IMG/VR virus record: IMGVR_UViG_3300020345_000381
Span: 6,474-70,473 of that record
Source: a virus
Lineage: Duplodnaviria > Caudoviricetes
Length of the DNA stretch: 64,000 nt
Direction: 5' to 3' (one strand)
Positions within the stretch are counted from its first letter, which is position 1; every line of letters begins with the position of its first letter. Positions 2,871 to 45,819 of the stretch are shown here, one piece after another. The notes below the pieces were generated by a model, which worked only from the letters and a program-made list of their open reading frames with translations, had not been told where the DNA came from and did no database searches. The translations under genes were made by a program, and so were the position numbers.

Positions 2871-3164
2871 ATGAAACAATTATTATATATAAGCTTAATA
2901 GCTTTAATATGTTCTTGTTCTGGAAGCCAATTGTTTTTAGAAGCAAGAACTACTTATGATGTTCCATTAAATAATAATGGACATATAAATAAAACTATGA
3001 TGGAATCTGATGCTAAAAACGTATCTGGGCTAGATCAGTTCAATCCTCAGATTAGAGTAACATATAGACAATATTTATTTGATGGTAAAAAAAATCAAAT
3101 AAAAAATATAGTTAAAAAACAAATTACAAATCAAACACTTGAATTAAAAAAGTTTAGAAAATAA
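2871..3164 (+). CDS. predicted lipoprotein
   Basis: MKQLLYISLIALIC-SCSGS signal peptide/lipobox; TAATG overlap with nrdB. Confidence 0.6.
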   Translation: MKQLLYISLIALICSCSGSQLFLEARTTYDVPLNNNGHINKTMMESDAKNVSGLDQFNPQIRVTYRQYLFDGKKNQIKNIVKKQITNQTLELKKFRK

Positions 3165-4132
3165 TGGGTTTATTTGATGAAAGAATTCCTTACAAACCTT
3201 TTGAATATCCAGAATATTATAATGAAGGTTGGCTTAAACAAGCACAAGCATTTTGGCTTCATACAGAAATACCAATGTCTAGTGATGTTAAGGATTGGAA
3301 TGAAAAATTAACTAAAGAAGAGAAGAACCTAGTAGGTAATATCTTACTAGGTTTTGCTCAGACAGAATGTGCAGTATCAGATTATTGGACACAAAAAGTA
3401 GTATCTTGGTTTCCAAAACATGAGATACAACAAATGGCTATGATATTTGGGTCACAAGAAACCATACATGCAGTAGCTTATTCATATTTAAATGAAACTC
3501 TTGGTTTGGAAAATTTTGAAGCGTTTTTACAAGACAAGGCAACAATGGAACGCTTTGATAATTTAATTAGTTATGACGGAAATAACACCACTGGAATTGC
3601 AAGAAGCATTGCCATCTTTAGCGCATTTGCTGAAGGTGTTAGTCTTTATTCTGCCTTTGCTGTTTTATATAGTTTTCAACTCAGAAATCTTTTAAAAGGA
3701 GTAGGGCAACAAATGAAATGGAGTGTAAGAGATGAATCTCTTCATTCTAAAATGGGATGTCAACTCTTCAGACATATGTGTGAAGAAGATCCTAAGTTGT
3801 TAAACAAATCTAAAAAAGATATATTTGATGCAGCAGAAACAATGCTTGAAGCCGAAGAAAAGTACATTGATAAAATGTTCGAGCTCGGTGATATCGAAAA
3901 CCTTAAAGCTTACGACCTTAAACAATTTATCCGTAAAAGACTCAACGAAAAAATTATTGAACTCGGTTACACAAACAAACGGGAATACTTTGAGTTTGAC
4001 AAAGACGCAGCAAAAAATCTTGACTGGTTCTACCATCTTACCGGGGGGCATACTCATACTGATTTTTTTGCTATTCGTCCTACTGATTACTCGAAAGCTA
4101 ATGAAGGTGAAGATTTTGAAGATATTTGGTAA
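3164..4132 (+). CDS. nrdB: ribonucleotide reductase class I beta subunit
   Basis: FWLHTE, QTE, QETIHAVAY (E/H ligands and radical Tyr), AEGVSLYSAF, RDESLH, DFFAIRP. Confidence 0.95.
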   Translation: MGLFDERIPYKPFEYPEYYNEGWLKQAQAFWLHTEIPMSSDVKDWNEKLTKEEKNLVGNILLGFAQTECAVSDYWTQKVVSWFPKHEIQQMAMIFGSQETIHAVAYSYLNETLGLENFEAFLQDKATMERFDNLISYDGNNTTGIARSIAIFSAFAEGVSLYSAFAVLYSFQLRNLLKGVGQQMKWSVRDESLHSKMGCQLFRHMCEEDPKLLNKSKKDIFDAAETMLEAEEKYIDKMFELGDIENLKAYDLKQFIRKRLNEKIIELGYTNKREYFEFDKDAAKNLDWFYHLTGGHTHTDFFAIRPTDYSKANEGEDFEDIW

Positions 4133-4136
4133 ATGA
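3828..4136 (+). CDS. putative overprinted +1-frame ORF in the nrdB 3' end, with a C-terminal transmembrane segment
   Basis: 102-codon ORF; nrdB avoids TTA/ATA throughout the overlap; ends GILILIFLLFVLLI-TRKLMKVK; ATGA overlap with the next gene. Confidence 0.5.
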   Translation: MQQKQCLKPKKSTLIKCSSSVISKTLKLTTLNNLSVKDSTKKLLNSVTQTNGNTLSLTKTQQKILTGSTILPGGILILIFLLFVLLITRKLMKVKILKIFGK

Positions 4137-34704: not shown

Positions 34705-36930
34705 CTAATTTAGAATTTTTGAATTTACTCCTTTATTATCATATTTTTTAAAACCTAAAGGCACCGATGTCAGTTTGCGTTCTGCTGTTGGCCTATATCT
34801 ATTTTTATTACATGCCATAATTGCTAAGCCTGAACTTATTGAGGCATCATGAAGTGTTCTGTTGTTTATATTAAATCTTGCCCAATCTTCTAAAGTGCGT
34901 TGAAAATATAAATCTCCATAATTTTCACCATTATATCCTATAAAATTTTCTATATAATCTTCTATAGCAGCTGCATGAGCTTGTTTGATATCTTCACTAG
35001 AGTTAGGTATACCACCTATTTCTCTTTCTGTTACTGATAATTTATTATAAATTTTATCTGGTCTATTCATAGAATATCCTCTATAACCTCTTCGTTTTAA
35101 ATAATATAATAATCTAGGTTTGTTATTTTCTGCAAGAAGTGGCATTCCATAAAATACTAATGCCATTAAAACATCTTCAAAAAAGATTTCAGCAGTTTGA
35201 GGTCTTGCTATATATTCTAAAAAAAAGCTATTAGGAGGAACATCCTCCATTGTAAATTTAGTTAAACCATGCAAAGAACCTTTTGAACCTCTACCATCTA
35301 CAGTTCCTGAAATATCATACGGATCACAACCAAAAGCACCACAATCAGTATTGGCAGGATATCGTATTCCATTTTTTATATTATACCTATTTTGTAAATT
35401 ATTAGGAGGAATCCACGAAATAAAAAATCTTCCATTATTATTAGGTATAAAAATAACTCTAGTATCTTTAATCCCATTTTCCCATTGAAAATTACCTTGA
35501 CTTATAATGTTTGTATTACGTAAATCTTCATTATAATCTATTTGTTCATATATTTTTGTAAGATTAAAAAGAGATTGTTTTGCTTCATCTCTAAAAGCGT
35601 GTTTTTCAGTTCGTGGGAATTGTCTATAAAATTCATTTAAACTGTCTTGATCTTCTTTTAAACCTTCAACTTCGTTTTCCCAGTGAGAGATAACCCCGAT
35701 ATTAATTTGTGATCCGTCAATCCCTTTAACGGCTTTTTTTGGAGTTTCGAATACAGGTATGCCATAAGTATTGATGTATCCTTCGTAGTTCCATTCCATA
35801 GGTATGAACAAACTATATAATCCTGTATTAGTCTGTCCATTGCGGTTTCTTTTTGTAACATCTGAAGCGTCATATAATTTTTTAAAGTTATCACCACCTT
35901 TGTCTAATGCATTTGATGTAGATCCCATCATACATTTTCCAACTATTCTACTCCCTAATCTTAACGTCGTTTTCGTGACTCTCCAGTTGTTGAGGATATT
36001 ATCCGGCCTCTCCCATTTCCCTGACTCGTCGTGCGCAAGGAGTTGTAACTTCTCCCCATCGTAGGAGTTGTCGCCGGTATTCTTCCAATCGATGGTTGTA
36101 TCCAACCCCTGGAGGTCTTCGATCTTACTATTCTGGTCCAATTTTTTTCTGGTAAGCTTCGAGGCAGGGACTCTATACGCGAGTTCCGTCTTGGGGCGGT
36201 CCATACCGTCCTGGATTGGTTTGAAAAAGAAGGGATAGTTAACTGATATTGGTACCACTTTGTCAGTAAACATCTTTTTCGCATCAGCTCCAGTTTTAGA
36301 TAATATTCCATATCGTGAATCTGAGGATATAGTGGCCTGGTGTACCAGTTCTGAGGATGCCATGAAAGAAAATCCCGATCGACGGTTCTTAAGGTAGCAC
36401 ATTCCATAACACCTAGTATCGGATTTACACGCTTCCCAAAAAATAAAGAAAAGTCTGTTGGACTCTCGAAACTCTGGTTTCCCAACATCAATCTTGGTCC
36501 ACTGCAAGTACATATAATGAGAACCAGTAATATAAGTGGGAATGCCTTTGTTATAAAACCAAAAGCCTTCTTCACGTCTTTTAAATTCTTCATCAATATA
36601 ATCATACCATTTATCTTTAAAATCAAGAGAAGTATTATTCCAATCAAAAACAGTTTTAAGTCTATCTAAAACTTTAGGATAATCAAATACTTCCCAATAT
36701 TGTTCTTCTTTTTTATTTCCTTTTTTATATACTTTTTCTTCTAGCGGTAAAGCAATTTTGAGACCTTGGATTTCATATATTTCCCCAATTTGGCCAGTTT
36801 TGCTGATAACCACGATATCATTTTCTTGATCGTACCCATATTTCCATTTTTTATATCTATTATTTCTTTTTATTATTTTTGGTTTAATATGATCAGATAA
36901 AATTTTATATAGAGTTTGTGTATATGTCAT
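34705..36930 (-). CDS. terL: terminase large subunit
   Basis: Walker A-like LKNRRSGFS, Walker B AHDESGK, MGST coupling motif, RuvC-like nuclease GCDPYD. Confidence 0.92.
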   Translation of the reverse strand: MTYTQTLYKILSDHIKPKIIKRNNRYKKWKYGYDQENDIVVISKTGQIGEIYEIQGLKIALPLEEKVYKKGNKKEEQYWEVFDYPKVLDRLKTVFDWNNTSLDFKDKWYDYIDEEFKRREEGFWFYNKGIPTYITGSHYMYLQWTKIDVGKPEFRESNRLFFIFWEACKSDTRCYGMCYLKNRRSGFSFMASSELVHQATISSDSRYGILSKTGADAKKMFTDKVVPISVNYPFFFKPIQDGMDRPKTELAYRVPASKLTRKKLDQNSKIEDLQGLDTTIDWKNTGDNSYDGEKLQLLAHDESGKWERPDNILNNWRVTKTTLRLGSRIVGKCMMGSTSNALDKGGDNFKKLYDASDVTKRNRNGQTNTGLYSLFIPMEWNYEGYINTYGIPVFETPKKAVKGIDGSQINIGVISHWENEVEGLKEDQDSLNEFYRQFPRTEKHAFRDEAKQSLFNLTKIYEQIDYNEDLRNTNIISQGNFQWENGIKDTRVIFIPNNNGRFFISWIPPNNLQNRYNIKNGIRYPANTDCGAFGCDPYDISGTVDGRGSKGSLHGLTKFTMEDVPPNSFFLEYIARPQTAEIFFEDVLMALVFYGMPLLAENNKPRLLYYLKRRGYRGYSMNRPDKIYNKLSVTEREIGGIPNSSEDIKQAHAAAIEDYIENFIGYNGENYGDLYFQRTLEDWARFNINNRTLHDASISSGLAIMACNKNRYRPTAERKLTSVPLGFKKYDNKGVNSKILN
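35658..35873 (-). CDS. second putative +1-frame ORF in terL (71 aa)
   Basis: Same +1 frame; C-ending synonymous codons enriched in terL over this stretch. Confidence 0.4.
   Translation of the reverse strand: MTLQMLQKETAMDRLIQDYIVCSYLWNGTTKDTSILMAYLYSKLQKKPLKGLTDHKLISGLSLTGKTKLKV
35961..36593 (-). CDS. overprinted +1-frame ORF in terL (210 aa from ATG 36593; frame open to 36647), possible lipoprotein
   Basis: 228 stop-free codons; terL GC3 about 66% at 36001-36240 versus about 15% in a downstream sample. Confidence 0.6.
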   Translation of the reverse strand: MKNLKDVKKAFGFITKAFPLILLVLIICTCSGPRLMLGNQSFESPTDFSLFFGKRVNPILGVMECATLRTVDRDFLSWHPQNWYTRPLYPQIHDMEYYLKLELMRKRCLLTKWYQYQLTIPSFSNQSRTVWTAPRRNSRIESLPRSLPEKNWTRIVRSKTSRGWIQPSIGRIPATTPTMGRSYNSLRTTSQGNGRGRIISSTTGESRKRR

Positions 36931-37199
36931 TTTGATCTACCTTCAGCAAAACCTTTAAAGTTATTACCTCGATTTTCTTTTTTAATTTCTTTTAACATAT
37001 TCTCTTCTTCTTCTATACGACTTAATATTTCAAACGCATCAAATACTGCTAATTTTTTAGTAGCAGCGGCGTTTTTTAATCTATCAGCCGAAACATCATC
37101 TTCTGAATCTACAATTTTTTCTTTTGCTACTTTAATTAATTCTTCAACTGCTTTTTGCCCAGCTTGGATTATACTCTTCTTGGTTTGTTTTGTGTTCAT
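36927..37199 (-). CDS. putative terminase small subunit
   Basis: 90-aa helical protein overlapping the terL start (ATGA). Confidence 0.45.
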   Translation of the reverse strand: MNTKQTKKSIIQAGQKAVEELIKVAKEKIVDSEDDVSADRLKNAAATKKLAVFDAFEILSRIEEEENMLKEIKKENRGNNFKGFAEGRSK

Positions 37200-37734
37200 A
37201 TTTAATTACAATATCATTTGATTCCATACAATATAAAAGTTCATTATCAATAATAAATTCAAATTCTCTAAGTGGTTTAAACCCTATTATATCTCCTGGA
37301 TTTATTTTAAGCACTTCTAATGAACTATTACCATATTTTAATATCCCTTTATTCTTTATTATTTTTTCATCTTCTAATAAAGGTTTTACAAAACAATAGT
37401 TTTCGTTAGGTATCCACTTATTTTTTTGATAATACATGTATACTTGAGAGGGAACTGCAAAATATAAATCATCTTTAAAATATTTAGTACTATTCACTGA
37501 TTTACCTTTCATGTTATAGTATCTTCTAAATAAATTATGATGTACTATAACTTTATCTCCTTTTTTAATTTTAGTATTATATATAAGCGGAACACTAACT
37601 ACTTCTGCTTCTCTATTTACAAATTTGTGACTAGATATAGTAGAATTAACAATTAATTCACAACCATCAATATTAATTTTGTTTTTATATCTTTCCCCAA
37701 TAGGTTTAATAATAAATTGATATAAACTTTTCAT
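37144..37734 (-). CDS. tandem GroES-like co-chaperonin
   Basis: Two GroES-like repeats: FIIKP...AEVVSVP...IKKGDKVIV and CFVKP...GILKY...INPGDIIGF...IDNELLYCMESNDI. Confidence 0.6.
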   Translation of the reverse strand: MKSLYQFIIKPIGERYKNKINIDGCELIVNSTISSHKFVNREAEVVSVPLIYNTKIKKGDKVIVHHNLFRRYYNMKGKSVNSTKYFKDDLYFAVPSQVYMYYQKNKWIPNENYCFVKPLLEDEKIIKNKGILKYGNSSLEVLKINPGDIIGFKPLREFEFIIDNELLYCMESNDIVIKYEHKTNQEEYNPSWAKSS

Positions 37735-38302: not shown

Positions 38303-39013
38303 TTAATATAGTGCTACCATTTCTGTAGCAGTTGTAGCTGAATCGTTAGTATAAACTTTTCTAACTAACATATCTAAAGTACTTCCTGCTGGAATACTTT
38401 GTATTGTTACTGTTTGATTTGGTGGTGCTGCGGCAAATTCTAATTTAATATCACCAGTTCCACCTACATATAAACCAAACCCACTATAACCAGGTTCAGC
38501 ATCATAAACAGCGTTAGTACCAGCATCAGCTCCACTTGTTGGAGCTTGTAAATCAGTAACAGCTAATGCTATTTCTAATGTACCCGTAATATTAGTTTGT
38601 CCAAAAGCTGTATTTAGATCTGATGCAGTAAAAATAATTGTTTGTGTAGCAGCAGCCATATTTGGACCAGCTCCAGGATTAGTAGGTGCACCAGGTGCAC
38701 TTCCTTGATTTAATCCATCTGGTCTTGTTTGCATTACTCTTACATTTGTTATAGCACCAGCACCATCAGTTTCGATAGTATAATATGCTCCCCATTGTTT
38801 ATTTTGAGTATTACTTGCTGAACCTAAAAAAGTACCTCCAGAAGCAAAAGCTGTAACAGTTTGAGCACTTGCAGCTATATTTGCTGTAGTATCTGTAAAT
38901 TGTCCTACAGGTATACCAGCTGCGCTAGCTCCAGGAGCTCTTAATGTAGCAACTGTTTCAATAGATACAGCATGGGTAGCAGCATCAGTTAAATTTTTTT
39001 GATATATTCCCAT
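38303..39013 (-). CDS. putative structural/decoration protein
   Basis: Ala/Thr/Gly-rich, LYVGGTGDIKL...GSTLDMLVRKV motif. Confidence 0.45.
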   Translation of the reverse strand: MGIYQKNLTDAATHAVSIETVATLRAPGASAAGIPVGQFTDTTANIAASAQTVTAFASGGTFLGSASNTQNKQWGAYYTIETDGAGAITNVRVMQTRPDGLNQGSAPGAPTNPGAGPNMAAATQTIIFTASDLNTAFGQTNITGTLEIALAVTDLQAPTSGADAGTNAVYDAEPGYSGFGLYVGGTGDIKLEFAAAPPNQTVTIQSIPAGSTLDMLVRKVYTNDSATTATEMVALY

Positions 39014-39021
39014 TTTTTTAT

Positions 39022-39441
39022 TTATTTATGTTTATTGTTTCCGAATACTTTTTCAACTCCACGAGAACCGAAATAACCTCCGATAACAATGGATAGAAGT
39101 CCAGTAATAGATTCTAAAGGATAGTGTAAATACCATCCTATAACGTAACTAATTGTTAAAAATATTAATGTTAATGGACGAACATTAGCAGCAAGCCACG
39201 CTCCGGAACGAGCATCTGCAACCCATCGCCTTGTTGTTCCATCAATTTCAGCTCTTTCGATTGTTAGTTTTTGTAAAGCAATTTCTTTATCTGCTTCAGA
39301 TAAATCTTTATTACCTGTTATTAATTCTGAAATAACGTTACCTGGTAATATTGCATCACCAACAATACCTAAGATACTAGGTGCTTTTTGAATAAGAAAT
39401 TTTCCTACACCAGTATCTTTAAAGGCCTTTTTTTTACTCAT
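39022..39441 (-). CDS. 3TM-type holin
   Basis: WLAANVRPLTL...GGYFGSRGVEK motif resembling the GTA 3TM holin family. Confidence 0.7.
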   Translation of the reverse strand: MSKKKAFKDTGVGKFLIQKAPSILGIVGDAILPGNVISELITGNKDLSEADKEIALQKLTIERAEIDGTTRRWVADARSGAWLAANVRPLTLIFLTISYVIGWYLHYPLESITGLLSIVIGGYFGSRGVEKVFGNNKHK

Positions 39442-44010: not shown

Positions 44011-44267
44011 AAAACCACAACAACATCTTGTAATTTAATAACAGTAAATTTATCTTTGTTGAATTCAATTCCATGACCAGCATGACGATCATAATAAATT
44101 AAATCACCTTTATTTAAACCTTTTATATCCTCACTAACAGAAACTACTTCAGCTTTTCTATATCTAATATCTTCCCTATCTTTTTCTATTATAAGTAATC
44201 CACCTTTAGTTTTATCGGTTTTTATTTTTTCAGGTTTAATTATAATATTATTTCCTATTGCTTTCAT
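44007..44267 (-). CDS. groES: co-chaperonin GroES
   Basis: KAIGNNIIIK...KTKGGLLI...AEVVSV...KGDLIYY; adjacent to groEL. Confidence 0.9.
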   Translation of the reverse strand: MKAIGNNIIIKPEKIKTDKTKGGLLIIEKDREDIRYRKAEVVSVSEDIKGLNKGDLIYYDRHAGHGIEFNKDKFTVIKLQDVVVVL

Positions 44268-45819
44268 CAATTCTTAAATTATTGATTACACAATCAGTTG
44301 ATAATATTGTAGTTGCTACAGATACAGCATTTATTAAAGCACTTTTAGTTACAAGAAGTGGATCAATAATACCTTCTTTAATCATATCAACAACTTCACC
44401 CGTTATTACATTTAATCCTTTACCTTTTACTTTACCTAATAATTCCGGTAAAGAATCTTGAGGACATAGTATTCCAGCATTATCTAAAATTACTCTAAAT
44501 GGAGATTCTATAGCTTTTAATAAAACTTTTTCTCCATCATTATCTGTTTTAATATTTTGTCCGGCATTAAGAAGAGCTATACCACCACCGGGTACAATAC
44601 CTTCTTTTATAGCGGCTTTTGTCGCACAAATAGCATCTTCTATTCTATCGGATTTTTCTTTTAATTCTATATCAGAATTTGCACCTACTTTTACTATTGC
44701 TATTTTAGCGGATAATCTTGCTAATCTTTTCTCTAGTCTTATTAAATGAGCTGGATTAGGTTTATTAGCTAATTCTTCTTTAACTGTTTTTATAACATCT
44801 AAAACAGCTTGATTTGGTTCACCTACTTGTAATATAGTATCTTTTTCATCAGTTATAGACTTTAAACAACTTCCTAAAAATTCAGGTTGTATTAAATCCA
44901 TATCATCACCAAGATCTTCATTGATGACAGTAGCGCCAGTAAGCATTGCTAAATCATCTAATGTTTCTCTTTTATTTACACCGAATGTAGGTGCATTTAC
45001 AATATTTATTTTTATATTACCTTTAGTTTTATTCATAGCAAGTGTTGCCATTACAGGTGCTTCTACATCTGCTATAATAAGTAAAGGTATATTCTTTTTT
45101 ATAACATGCTCCAATACAGACTGAATTTGTCTTATATTTTCTACTGGAGATTCTATAAGTAATACTGCGGGGTTTTCTAGTTCTGCAGTCTTTTTTGCTT
45201 TGTTAGTAATAAAATGCGGATTTGTCAATCCTTTTTCATATTGTACACCATCAACTAATTCAATTTCAGTTTCAGGTAAGGATGAATGTTCCATCATTAC
45301 TACACCTGTTTCACCAACAGATCTAAATGCATCCCCGATAATTTTTCCAAGGGTTGGTTCATTATTTGTAGATATAGTAGCTATTTGATCAATCATCTCA
45401 CCTTTTACAGGAATAGATATTTTTTCTAAATATTTAACTACTTTTTTTACAGCCTTATTAATATTTTCTTTTAATTCTCTAGAATTTATATCAATACCTT
45501 TAGCTTGTTCAAGTATAGCATGAGCTAATACTGTTGCTGTTGTTGTACCATCACCTGCTTCTGAAACTGTTTTTCTAGCAGCTTCTTTTAAAAGTGTGGC
45601 ACCCATATTTTCTACAGGATCTAATAAAACTATTGAATTTGCTACAGTAACCCCGTCTTTAGTAATAATTGGGTTACCCTTATCATCTTCAAGTAAAACA
45701 CACTTACCGCTAGCCCCTAAAGTGGAGCTAACAGCTTGCGTGAGTTTATCGATTCCTTTAAATACTTGATTCTGAGCATCTTGCCCAAAATTAAGATTCT
45801 TGACTATTAAGTCTGGCAT
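44248..45819 (-). CDS. groEL: chaperonin GroEL
   Basis: STLGASG, ITKDGVTVA, GDGTTTATVLA, DRIEDA, GIVPGGG, GIIDP; no GGM tail. Confidence 0.97.
   Translation of the reverse strand: MPDLIVKNLNFGQDAQNQVFKGIDKLTQAVSSTLGASGKCVLLEDDKGNPIITKDGVTVANSIVLLDPVENMGATLLKEAARKTVSEAGDGTTTATVLAHAILEQAKGIDINSRELKENINKAVKKVVKYLEKISIPVKGEMIDQIATISTNNEPTLGKIIGDAFRSVGETGVVMMEHSSLPETEIELVDGVQYEKGLTNPHFITNKAKKTAELENPAVLLIESPVENIRQIQSVLEHVIKKNIPLLIIADVEAPVMATLAMNKTKGNIKINIVNAPTFGVNKRETLDDLAMLTGATVINEDLGDDMDLIQPEFLGSCLKSITDEKDTILQVGEPNQAVLDVIKTVKEELANKPNPAHLIRLEKRLARLSAKIAIVKVGANSDIELKEKSDRIEDAICATKAAIKEGIVPGGGIALLNAGQNIKTDNDGEKVLLKAIESPFRVILDNAGILCPQDSLPELLGKVKGKGLNVITGEVVDMIKEGIIDPLLVTKSALINAVSVATTILSTDCVINNLRIDESNRK

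What the first reader, a model, noticed from the sequence alone, without database searches (positions are those of the whole stretch)
35961..36647. 228-codon open +1 frame inside terL, with a GC island and lipoprotein-like signal
Seen: no +1 stop for 687 nt in an AT-rich genome. terL codons at 36001-36240 are 53/80 G/C-ending (manual count, including Met/Trp) versus 3/20 at 35461-35520. TTA/ATA usage returns right at the nested TAA (35961-35963). From ATG 36593 the product starts MKNLKDVKKAFGFITKAFPLILLVLIIC-TCSG, similar to the lipobox of the ORF at 2871 (LIALIC-SCSG), and then becomes S/T/R/P-rich. Established: nested lysis genes such as Rz1 within Rz are lipoproteins in alternative frames. 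Inference: an envelope protein (spanin-like or exclusion factor) embedded in the ATPase domain of the packaging motor gene, an arrangement I do not know from elsewhere.
Basis: partly seen in the sequence, partly recalled or inferred. Interest (0 to 1): 0.85.

Follow-up and report, generated by a model that had tools for sequence, protein, structure and literature searches.

The report
Hidden gene overprinted on phage terminase
Inside the DNA-packaging motor gene of an uncultured marine flavobacterial phage, a second reading frame encodes a real, selection-maintained protein of about 214 residues with a membrane-targeting leader and a long, very basic, disordered tail. It is a clear new example of a gene born by overprinting, and it has forced a visible recoding of the essential host gene.

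Summary
A 228-codon +1-frame ORF (35961-36647, minus strand) lies inside terL (34705-36930) and coincides with a third-codon-position GC island.

It is not a by-product of the island.
- In 62 of 81 relatives (75-92% TerL identity) the frame stays open.
- +1 stops are far below what each sequence's own codon usage predicts: 4 versus 76.5 expected in 22 long-form loci.
- The +2 frame, the region downstream of each lineage's own stop, and ORF-less lineages show no depletion.
- ORF-bearing lineages alone show site-specific synonymous constraint over the leader. There terL wobble bases are chosen to give Leu, using T rather than G/C, and a C-T-C-S-G motif.
- In the five sister pairs compared, the island is missing or fading wherever the ORF is broken.
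- A conserved RNA structure and a foreign DNA patch were tested and rejected.

The product has a helical, signal-peptide-like leader with a near-lipobox, then an S/T/P/R-rich tail of pI about 11 that is predicted to be disordered. It matches no known family.

My reading is a lineage-specific overprinted gene for an envelope-targeted accessory protein. A spanin-like or exclusion role is untested. Nested ORFs in terL are also annotated in T7 (19.2, 19.3).

The parts
34705..36930 (-). terL (terminase large subunit), 741 aa; the ancestral frame that hosts the nested gene
   Evidence: phrog_6681 E=3.9e-166. 87 phage records and about 600 IMG/VR loci encode relatives.
35961..36647 (-). Open +1 frame as reported: 228 codons from TTG, spanning terL codons 94-323
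   Evidence: z=7.8 against synonymous shuffles.
35961..36605 (-). Most likely coding sequence: ATG 36605 to TAA 35961-35963, 214 aa. A second in-frame ATG lies at 36593.
   Evidence: ATG at terL codon 108 is present in 40 of 42 long-form relatives but only 10 of 19 ORF-less ones (Fisher p=2.5e-4 among Tyr108 codons). 61 protein clusters of the same ORF were called in ENA/JGI/NCBI metagenomes, most about 210-216 aa.
36504..36605 (-). Leader, residues 1-34: a Lys-rich n-region (net +4), a Leu-rich h-region (residues 21-31), then Cys32 and Cys34
   Evidence: AlphaFold2 predicts a helix over residues 2-34, pLDDT 55-70. Hydropathy peaks only here. Leu is chosen at 89-100% at five h-region positions in ORF-bearing lineages, against 15-63% in ORF-less ones, by using T at the terL wobble base.
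36498..36512 (-). C-T-C-S-G motif (residues 32-36), lipobox-like
   Evidence: Thr 92%, Cys 95% and Ser 81% in ORF-bearing lineages, against Ile 53%, Cys 58%/Tyr 37% and Asn 89% in ORF-less ones. The first Cys is fixed by TerL Met-Tyr. The PROSITE-like core is met only if Thr is allowed at -1.
36391..36615 (-). Segment of terL (codons 105-180) with site-specific synonymous constraint, seen only in ORF-bearing lineages
   Evidence: Composition-corrected excess identity at synonymous sites is +0.10 to +0.29 (peak at codons 135-165), against -0.04 to +0.08 in ORF-less lineages. The baseline elsewhere in terL is about 0.
35965..36510 (-). GC3 island in terL (codons about 140-322): synonymous recoding imposed by the nested frame
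   Evidence: GC at codon positions 1/2/3 is 0.45/0.40/0.52 in long-form lineages and 0.42/0.40/0.21 in ORF-less ones. The island ends at each lineage's own nested stop, near codons 320, 297 or 260.
35964..36383 (-). Basic, S/T/P/R-rich tail predicted to be disordered (residues 75-214)
   Evidence: pLDDT <40 throughout. The whole mature part (residues 34-214, of which this tail is the larger share) has pI about 11 and net +16 to +23 in long forms. There is no site-specific synonymous constraint, but composition is shifted and stops are strongly depleted.

Best explanation
This is a real, lineage-specific protein-coding gene overprinted in the +1 frame on the ATPase half of terL. It is probably translated by internal initiation on the late terL message, at ATG 36605 or 36593. 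The start region is still AT-rich. The product is about 214 aa here and 145-220 aa in relatives. It begins with a positively charged n-region, a Leu-rich helix and a C-T-C-S-G motif. That is a signal-peptide or signal-anchor-like leader, and the flanking charges favour an N-in, C-out orientation. A short moderately constrained stretch follows, and then a long S/T/P/R-rich tail of pI about 11 that is predicted to be disordered. The GC3 island in terL is the footprint of this second frame. terL codon position 3 is nested codon position 2, so T-to-C and A-to-G wobble changes turn a hydrophobic, stop-ridden +1 read into a hydrophilic, basic, stop-free one. Shown here: selection keeps the frame open, keeps the start codon, keeps the leader hydrophobic and keeps the Cys motif, and the island decays when the frame breaks. 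Inferred: export or lipid anchoring to the envelope. More speculative: a late role at the cell envelope, such as outer-membrane destabilisation at lysis by the cationic tail, or masking of receptors.
For: (1) Conservation. The frame is open for at least 140 codons in 62 of 81 relatives with 75-92% TerL identity, in three length classes. (2) Frame-specific stop depletion beyond GC content. In 22 thinned long-form loci, terL codons 180-321 carry 4 +1 stops (their own terminators) against 76.5 expected from synonymous shuffles; the +2 frame carries 242 against 214. The mid class has 0 against 39.3 inside the ORF and 52 against 61 downstream of its own stop. The 200-codon class has 0 against 32 inside and 18 against 19.5 downstream. 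ORF-less lineages have 191 against 221. (3) Site-specific synonymous constraint at terL codons 105-180, found only in ORF-bearing lineages. (4) Protein-level choices that GC pressure cannot explain. Leu in the h-region is obtained with T at the wobble base (89-100% against 15-63%), and Thr/Cys/Ser in CTCSG are chosen over Ile/Tyr/Asn. (5) ATG retained in 40 of 42 long forms against 10 of 19 ORF-less sequences. (6) Matched sister pairs. L070 (ORF) and L025 (no ORF) share 95% TerL identity in the region. Only 22-26% of same-residue codons differ in the flanks, but 61% differ inside, 83 toward GC in L070 and 2 the other way. Four further pairs go the same way, and L079 looks like an intermediate stage of decay. 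(7) AlphaFold2 with 42 sequences gives an N-terminal helix and a low-confidence remainder. Composition shifts from 44% hydrophobic and 15% STPGA to 29% and 37%, and Arg rises from 2.9% to 10.7%. Disorder-prone, accessory proteins with restricted phylogenetic distribution are what is described for overprinted viral genes (PMC8227390). (8) A holin-family gene lies on the same strand 2.1 kb upstream of terL, so late co-expression is plausible.
Against: There is no direct evidence of translation (no proteomics or ribosome profiling), and no phage in this clade is cultured. The strict lipobox is not met (Thr at -1), and SignalP/LipoP could not be run. About two thirds of the protein shows no site-specific constraint, only compositional constraint and stop avoidance. 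Similarity among nested proteins is largely forced by the conserved TerL sequence, so it does not by itself show functional conservation. The ORF has been lost, or was never present, in at least four lineages and in all cultured relatives examined, so it is dispensable. A +20 net charge is unusual for an exported protein. No partner or function-informative neighbour was found, and no family matches.
Confidence: 0.65

Rival explanations
1. The gene is real and selected, but it is not an exported or lipoprotein-type envelope factor. The leader tethers it to the cytoplasmic face of the inner membrane, or acts as an amphipathic or oligomerising helix. The Arg-rich disordered tail then works in the cytoplasm, for example by binding DNA or RNA or by acting with the packaging machinery, alongside which it would be made if it is translated from the terL message.
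For: The tail has pI about 11 and net +16 to +23. Both are typical of nucleic-acid binders and awkward for Sec export. The gene lies inside the packaging motor gene and would be co-transcribed with it. The strict lipobox is not met. The shorter 'mid' forms lack the strong positive charge (pI 8.4-9.5), so the tail's charge is not essential to the conserved core.
Against: Selection is concentrated on a Leu-rich hydrophobic segment of about 11 residues and the Cys motif that follows it. Charge flanking the helix is +4 on the N side and about 0 over the first 20 residues on the C side, which favours N-in, C-out (and the sequence itself). A free-standing phage gene at 2871 with a strict lipobox has a very similar leader.
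Confidence: 0.2
2. The open frame is a passive by-product of a GC-rich patch in terL that exists for another reason: an RNA or DNA structure, control of translation speed, or a segment acquired by recombination from a GC-richer phage. On this reading the +1 frame is not a functional gene.
For: GC-rich sequence has fewer stop triplets. The island and the ORF always co-occur, and the ORF ends where the island ends. The tail shows no site-specific synonymous constraint. ORF status is patchy on the terL trees, which is compatible with recombination.
Against: Shuffles that keep each sequence's own local codon usage still predict 3-8 +1 stops per sequence where none is seen, and only the +1 frame is depleted. 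Leader codons are chosen toward T, not G/C. Alignment folding gives no structure signal in the island (z from -0.4 to +1.4), and Rfam gives only a sub-threshold hit (21.7 bits against a gathering score of 40; E=0.8). GC at codon positions 1 and 2 and the TerL identity are the same in lineages with and without the island, so it is synonymous recoding and not foreign DNA. The island decays where the frame is broken.
Confidence: 0.07
3. The +1 frame is reached by programmed ribosomal frameshifting from terL. This would give a fusion of the first ~100 TerL residues with the +1 product, rather than an independent protein.
For: The overlap is on the same strand and in the +1 frame. In several relatives the +1 frame is open for 20-50 codons upstream of the ATG. 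A weak sub-threshold Rfam frameshift-element hit lies at 35982-36021 (E=0.8), but that is at the 3' end of the ORF, not the 5' end.
Against: The ATG is conserved right before a leader that can only act as a signal at an N-terminus. In the window a +1 stop sits only 14 codons upstream of the ATG, and in L021/L024 a stop lies between the two ATGs. No slippery-site conservation was noted. The synonymous constraint starts at the ATG region, not upstream of it.
Confidence: 0.05

Closest known systems
Rz1 in Rz (lambda) and T7 gene 18.7 in 18.5: o-spanin lipoprotein genes embedded out of frame in another gene
   Same: A same-strand, out-of-frame gene wholly nested in another late gene. It has an N-terminal leader ending in Cys and a Pro/Ser/Thr-rich product with little predicted structure. 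The T7 record annotates 18.7 in this way.
   Different: The host gene is terL, not an i-spanin. The mature part is about 181 aa, against a few tens of residues (my recollection). Thr replaces Ala/Gly/Ser at lipobox position -1. The tail is strongly basic. There is no spanin family hit and no identifiable i-spanin partner.
T7 genes 19.2 and 19.3: hypothetical ORFs nested in gene 19 (terL)
   Same: These are nested ORFs inside a terminase large subunit gene. By the record's coordinates both are in the +1 frame of gene 19. The window's terL likewise holds two +1-frame open stretches.
   Different: The T7 ORFs are 85 and 57 aa and have no known function or demonstrated selection (to my knowledge). 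There is no sequence similarity, and the TerL proteins are not close relatives. The ORF here is 214 aa, with population-scale evidence of selection.
Viral genes born de novo by overprinting (e.g. phiX174 E in D, tymovirus movement protein in replicase, polyomavirus ALTO in large T)
   Same: Restricted phylogenetic distribution, accessory and dispensable character, composition biased toward disorder, and synonymous constraint imposed on the ancestral frame. These are the features summarised in PMC8227390 and PMC3494269.
   Different: This one is in a roughly 70-kb tailed dsDNA phage, where genome-size pressure is weak. The recoding is unusually strong (GC3 from 0.2 to 0.5-0.7). It also offers a natural series of truncated and lost alleles.
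Disruptin (phage phiKT gp28): a cationic peptide that disrupts the outer membrane in spanin-less phages
   Same: A strongly cationic phage product that could act on the anionic outer membrane. Disruptin was found in a podophage lacking recognisable spanins (bioRxiv 10.1101/515445).
   Different: Disruptin is described as a short antimicrobial-peptide-like product, whereas this protein is 214 aa, has a leader, and is predicted disordered rather than amphipathic-helical. This is a functional analogy only. No test was done here.

Membership tests
Overprinted (same-strand nested) protein-coding gene | Alternative-frame ORF far longer than the host gene's codon usage predicts | tested here: met
   234 codons against 72 +/- 21 (maximum 147) in shuffles; top of 170 gene-by-frame tests.
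Overprinted (same-strand nested) protein-coding gene | Frame kept open across diverged relatives, with stop depletion specific to that frame | tested here: met
   62 of 81 relatives are open. +1 stops are 4 against 76.5 expected and +2 stops 242 against 214. Controls downstream of each lineage's stop and in ORF-less lineages are at expectation.
Overprinted (same-strand nested) protein-coding gene | Reduced, site-specific synonymous variability in the host gene across the overlap | tested here: inconclusive
   Met for terL codons 105-180 (excess +0.10 to +0.29, only in ORF-bearing lineages). Not met for codons 180-320, which show only a composition shift.
Overprinted (same-strand nested) protein-coding gene | Conserved start codon | tested here: met
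   ATG at terL codon 108 in 40 of 42 long forms against 10 of 19 ORF-less sequences. All 42 long forms have an ATG within codons 104-118.
Overprinted (same-strand nested) protein-coding gene | Direct evidence of translation | not testable with these tools
   No proteomic or ribosome-profiling data are available, and no member of the clade is cultured.
Bacterial lipoprotein signal peptide (SPase II; PROSITE PS51257-type rule) | Positively charged n-region followed by an uncharged hydrophobic h-region | tested here: met
   The n-region carries five Lys and one Asp (net +4), and the h-region is Leu/Ile/Val-rich. AlphaFold2 predicts a helix over residues 2-34.
Bacterial lipoprotein signal peptide (SPase II; PROSITE PS51257-type rule) | Lipobox with Ala/Gly/Ser at -1 before the Cys | tested here: not met
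   The strict core is matched in 2 of 100 sequences. All 100 match if Thr is allowed at -1. Given TerL Tyr-Leu, only Thr or Ile can be encoded there, and Thr is used in 92%. The free-standing ORF 2871 meets the strict rule.
Bacterial lipoprotein signal peptide (SPase II; PROSITE PS51257-type rule) | Cys between residues 15 and 35 | tested here: met
   Cys32 and Cys34 counted from ATG 36605; Cys28 and Cys30 counted from ATG 36593.
o-spanin (Rz1-like) | Small mature lipoprotein embedded in, overlapping or adjacent to an i-spanin gene | tested here: not met
   The mature part is about 181 aa and the gene is embedded in terL. No N-terminal-TMD coiled-coil partner was found next to terL or next to the holin.
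o-spanin (Rz1-like) | Match to a spanin family profile | tested here: not met
   No PHROG, Pfam or NCBIfam hit.
Disruptin-like cationic outer-membrane disruptor | Short, cationic, amphipathic helical peptide able to permeabilise the outer membrane | tested here: inconclusive
   Cationic: yes (net +16 to +23). Short and helical: no (214 aa; tail pLDDT <40). Activity cannot be tested here.

The most novel reading that the evidence does not exclude
The nested gene is the outer-membrane-disrupting, spanin-substituting lysis component of this clade of Bacteroidota podophages. It would be a lipid- or membrane-anchored polycationic disordered protein made late from the terL message. It would be ancestral to the clade and replaced or lost at least four times. 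This would be a new mechanistic class of lysis factor, and it is encoded inside the packaging motor gene.
Probability: 0.12. Interest if true: 0.8.

Novelty: new variant of a known kind. Interest (0 to 1): 0.62.

Why it matters
Overprinting is textbook for small viruses, but well-supported long nested genes in large tailed phages are few, and standard annotation forbids them. Here an essential, highly conserved gene (the terL ATPase domain) has been synonymously recoded over about 550 nt to accommodate a second protein. Nature also supplies the controls: truncated alleles whose recoding stops at the new stop codon, and sister phages in which the frame is broken and the recoding has decayed. 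That makes this a clean system for three purposes:
- measuring how selection on a young, mostly disordered protein acts through the wobble bases of an old gene;
- benchmarking overlapping-gene detectors on phage metagenomes;
- looking for missing envelope or lysis functions in Bacteroidota phages, whose spanin equivalents are, to my knowledge, largely unknown.

It also shows that a local GC3 island inside a gene of an AT-rich phage can flag a hidden gene.

Tried and rejected
- Conserved RNA structure as the cause of the island. Rfam at a permissive threshold gave only one sub-threshold hit (E=0.8). Alignment folding against column shuffles gave z from -0.4 to +1.4 across codons 140-340. Rejected.
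- Horizontal GC-rich patch. GC at codon positions 1 and 2 and TerL identity are the same with and without the island. Rejected as an explanation of the composition. Recombination between related phages may still explain the patchy distribution.
- Raw synonymous identity inside versus outside the overlap was misleading because composition differs. It was replaced by composition-corrected measures.
- Family, structure and look-alike searches of the product all found nothing: Pfam, PHROGs, NCBIfam, PADLOC, PDB sequences, ESM Atlas.
- A profile search of 1.84 billion representatives found 155 clusters, none longer than 374 aa; I read them as copies or fragments of this same ORF, but their genomic context was not checked.
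- The AlphaFold2 model is too low in confidence (mean pLDDT 39.5) for a fold search, so none was run.
- Paralogy with the lipoprotein gene at 2871: similarity is confined to the 22-residue leader, so homology is not shown.
- Similarity to T7 19.2: none.
- One metagenomic contig in which a gene caller chose the nested ORF has terL split into pieces. It was not used as evidence.
- Cultured relatives (Elemovirus, phi13:2, phi38:1) and MW202828 have no such ORF or island.
- Complex prediction, read mapping and sequencing-run searches were not used, because none could show translation or a partner.
Full report
WHAT IS THERE. The window is bases 6474-70473 of a 70,473-bp IMG/VR virus record rated complete. 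The gene at 34705-36930 (minus strand, 741 aa) is the terminase large subunit (phrog_6681, E=3.9e-166), and a portal gene follows it. The nearest cultured relatives are podophages of Flavobacterium (Elemovirus, 45% identity), Cellulophaga (38-39%) and Tenacibaculum (31%).

In frame +1 of terL lies an ORF at 35961-36647. It is 228 codons from TTG and 234 codons stop to stop. GC rises to 0.52 at 36000-36199, against 0.25-0.30 around it. The rise sits at terL third codon positions.

IS IT MORE THAN CHANCE? I shuffled synonymous codons within each of 34 genes of the window and measured the longest open stretch in the five alternative frames. The terL +1 frame is the top outlier of 170 tests, at 234 codons against 72 +/- 21, with a maximum of 147 in 200 shuffles (z=7.8).

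COMPARATIVE EVIDENCE. IMG/VR holds about 600 loci that encode relatives. I analysed the best 80 (75-92% TerL identity) plus MW202828 (63%), using a codon alignment. The sequences fall into four classes:
- 28 have the +1 frame open for about 194-210 codons beyond the leader.
- 14 stop near terL codon 297.
- 20 stop near codons 260-272.
- 20 (19 IMG/VR loci plus MW202828) have 9-17 stops.

The GC3 island is present only in the first three classes, and it ends at each class's own stop codon.

The island alone could produce an open frame, so I tested stop avoidance while keeping each sequence's own codon usage in the region.
- In 22 thinned long-form loci, terL codons 180-321 carry 4 +1 stops, all of them the ORFs' own terminators, against 76.5 expected. 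The +2 frame carries 242 against 214 expected.
- In the mid class there are 0 against 39.3 expected inside the ORF, but 52 against 61 downstream of its stop.
- In the 200-codon class there are 0 against 32 inside and 18 against 19.5 downstream.
- ORF-less lineages have 191 against 221.

Synonymous sites between these sequences are otherwise saturated: composition-corrected excess identity is about 0 over most of terL. The sequences are therefore close to independent samples at these sites. Avoidance of stops is specific to the +1 frame, to the ORF's extent and to the lineages that have the ORF.

PROTEIN-LEVEL SELECTION. Composition-corrected identity at synonymous sites shows a peak at terL codons 105-180 (+0.10 to +0.29). 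The peak appears only in ORF-bearing lineages; ORF-less ones give -0.04 to +0.08. I enumerated which nested residues the conserved TerL sequence allows at each position.
- ORF-bearing lineages choose Leu at five positions of the hydrophobic segment in 89-100% of sequences. ORF-less lineages have Gln, His or a stop there, with Leu at only 15-63%. This Leu is obtained with T at the terL wobble base, so GC pressure cannot explain it.
- Directly after the segment, Thr (92%), Cys (95%) and Ser (81%) are chosen where ORF-less lineages have Ile, Tyr and Asn. This gives the motif C-T-C-S-G.
- The ATG at terL codon 108 (window 36605) is kept in 40 of 42 long forms against 10 of 19 ORF-less sequences (p=2.5e-4).

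Downstream of about codon 180 there is no site-specific constraint, only a compositional one. Compared with ORF-less lineages, the +1 read changes as follows:
- Hydrophobic residues fall from 44% to 29%.
- S/T/P/G/A rises from 15% to 37%.
- Arg rises from 2.9% to 10.7%.
- Stops fall from 5.8% to 0.2%.

terL position 3 is nested position 2, so T-to-C and A-to-G wobble changes produce exactly this shift.

NATURAL EXPERIMENTS. ORF status is patchy on trees built from the terL C-terminal half and from the overlap region. Well-supported branches force at least 4 changes for 'none' and at least 9 for 'full'.

Sister pairs are informative. L070 (ORF) and L025 (none) share 95% TerL identity in the region. 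Only 22-26% of same-residue codons differ in their flanks, yet 61% differ inside the overlap, 83 toward GC in L070 and 2 the other way. Four further pairs behave alike (70:8, 64:7, 78:5, 51:18). In the last of these, L079 has a truncated ORF and a half-faded island.

GC at codon positions 1 and 2 (0.45/0.40 against 0.42/0.40) and TerL identity (0.87 within groups, 0.865 between) do not differ between classes. The island is therefore synonymous recoding and not foreign DNA. My inference is that the island is held up by selection only while the +1 frame is intact, and that it decays under AT-biased mutation once the frame is broken. This favours an ancestral ORF with repeated loss. Recombination between related phages is not excluded.

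RIVALS TESTED. A conserved RNA structure is not supported: Rfam gives only a sub-threshold hit, and alignment folding against column shuffles gives z from -0.4 to +1.4 across the island. A frameshift fusion is unlikely, because the ATG is conserved right before a leader that can act only at an N-terminus, and +1 stops lie close upstream.

THE PRODUCT. From ATG 36605 the protein is 214 aa. It has these parts:
- a Lys-rich n-region (net +4);
- a Leu/Ile/Val h-region (residues 21-31);
- Cys32-Thr-Cys34-Ser-Gly;
- a tail whose mature part has pI 11.0, net +19 and 55% S/T/P/G/R/Q/N.

AlphaFold2 with a 42-sequence alignment gives one helix over residues 2-34 (pLDDT 55-70) and pLDDT below 40 for the rest. 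The flanking charges favour an N-in, C-out orientation.

The PROSITE-type lipobox core is met by only 2 of 100 orthologues, because position -1 is Thr. TerL's Tyr-Leu permits only Thr or Ile there, and Thr is chosen. A free-standing phage gene at 2871-3164 has a strict lipobox and a very similar leader.

No family, solved structure or atlas cluster matches. Gene callers have predicted the same ORF in 61 clusters at 90% identity and 155 at 50% identity, all unnamed. Cultured relatives and MW202828 lack both the ORF and the island. A holin-family gene (phrog_3427) lies at 39022-39441 on the same strand, but no i-spanin-like partner is apparent.

COMPARISON WITH WHAT IS KNOWN. The phenomenon is overprinting. 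Restricted distribution, accessory character and disorder-biased composition match what is described for de novo overlapping viral genes (PMC8227390).

The closest architectural analogues are Rz1-in-Rz and T7 18.7-in-18.5. Membership in the o-spanin family fails on size, on the identity of the host gene, on the missing partner and on profile matches.

Nested ORFs in a terL gene are not unprecedented as annotations. T7 genes 19.2 and 19.3 lie in the +1 frame of gene 19, but they are short, uncharacterised (to my knowledge) and unrelated. A cationic outer-membrane disruptor, disruptin, is known from a spanin-less podophage (10.1101/515445). That is a functional analogy only.

VERDICT. I put the nested frame being a real, selected gene at about 0.9, and envelope or membrane targeting at about 0.7 given that. 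A lysis or exclusion role is speculative. I file it as a new variant of a known kind, with interest 0.62.

Noticed in passing
window 35658-35897 (terL codons 344-424); near-invariant nucleotide core about 35750-35820: A second constrained element lies in terL and is present in all lineages, including those without the main nested ORF. Synonymous-site excess identity is +0.2 to +0.47. +1-frame stops are 3 against 27.4 expected over codons 345-395. Alignment folding gives z=-4.4 at codons 365-415, but the sequences are almost invariant, so there is no covariation to judge by. It could be a second short +1 gene (79 codons here) or a DNA- or RNA-level site.
   Followed up: partly
window 3825-4136 (+), inside the gene at 3164-4132: The second-ranked alternative-frame outlier in the window is a 103-108 codon +1 ORF at the 3' end of the 322-aa gene (z=4.8 against synonymous shuffles). 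Its product ends in a hydrophobic stretch.
   Followed up: no
window 2871-3164 (+): A free-standing 97-aa ORF has a strict lipobox (..LIALIC-S-C-SG) and a leader 45% identical over 22 residues to that of the nested protein. It has no family hit.
   Followed up: partly
window 39022-39441 (-) and 38303-39013 (-): A holin-family hit (phrog_3427, E=1.5e-12) lies 2.1 kb upstream of terL on the same strand. The adjacent 236-aa Ala/Gly/Thr-rich protein scores just above the NCBIfam cutoff for a 'spike base protein' (29.4 against 28 bits). No endolysin or spanin was recognised among the genes scanned.
   Followed up: no
window 37144-37734 (-) and 44248-45819 (-): The phage encodes a GroES-like protein with two matched stretches (phrog_13932) next to terL, and a GroEL (phrog_5725).
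   Followed up: no
L087 2795-5007 (ENA contig ERZ10646555:contig_13184): In this relative the gene caller reports the nested ORF (253 aa) and splits terL into 65-aa and 366-aa pieces. The terL frame is indeed interrupted in the contig. This may be an assembly frameshift or a genuinely broken terL.
   Followed up: partly
L079 (IMG/VR 3300048008_000432), terL codons 118-320: The nested ORF is truncated (106 codons) and the GC3 island is half faded, while the sister L080 keeps both. This looks like a recent loss caught in decay.
   Followed up: partly
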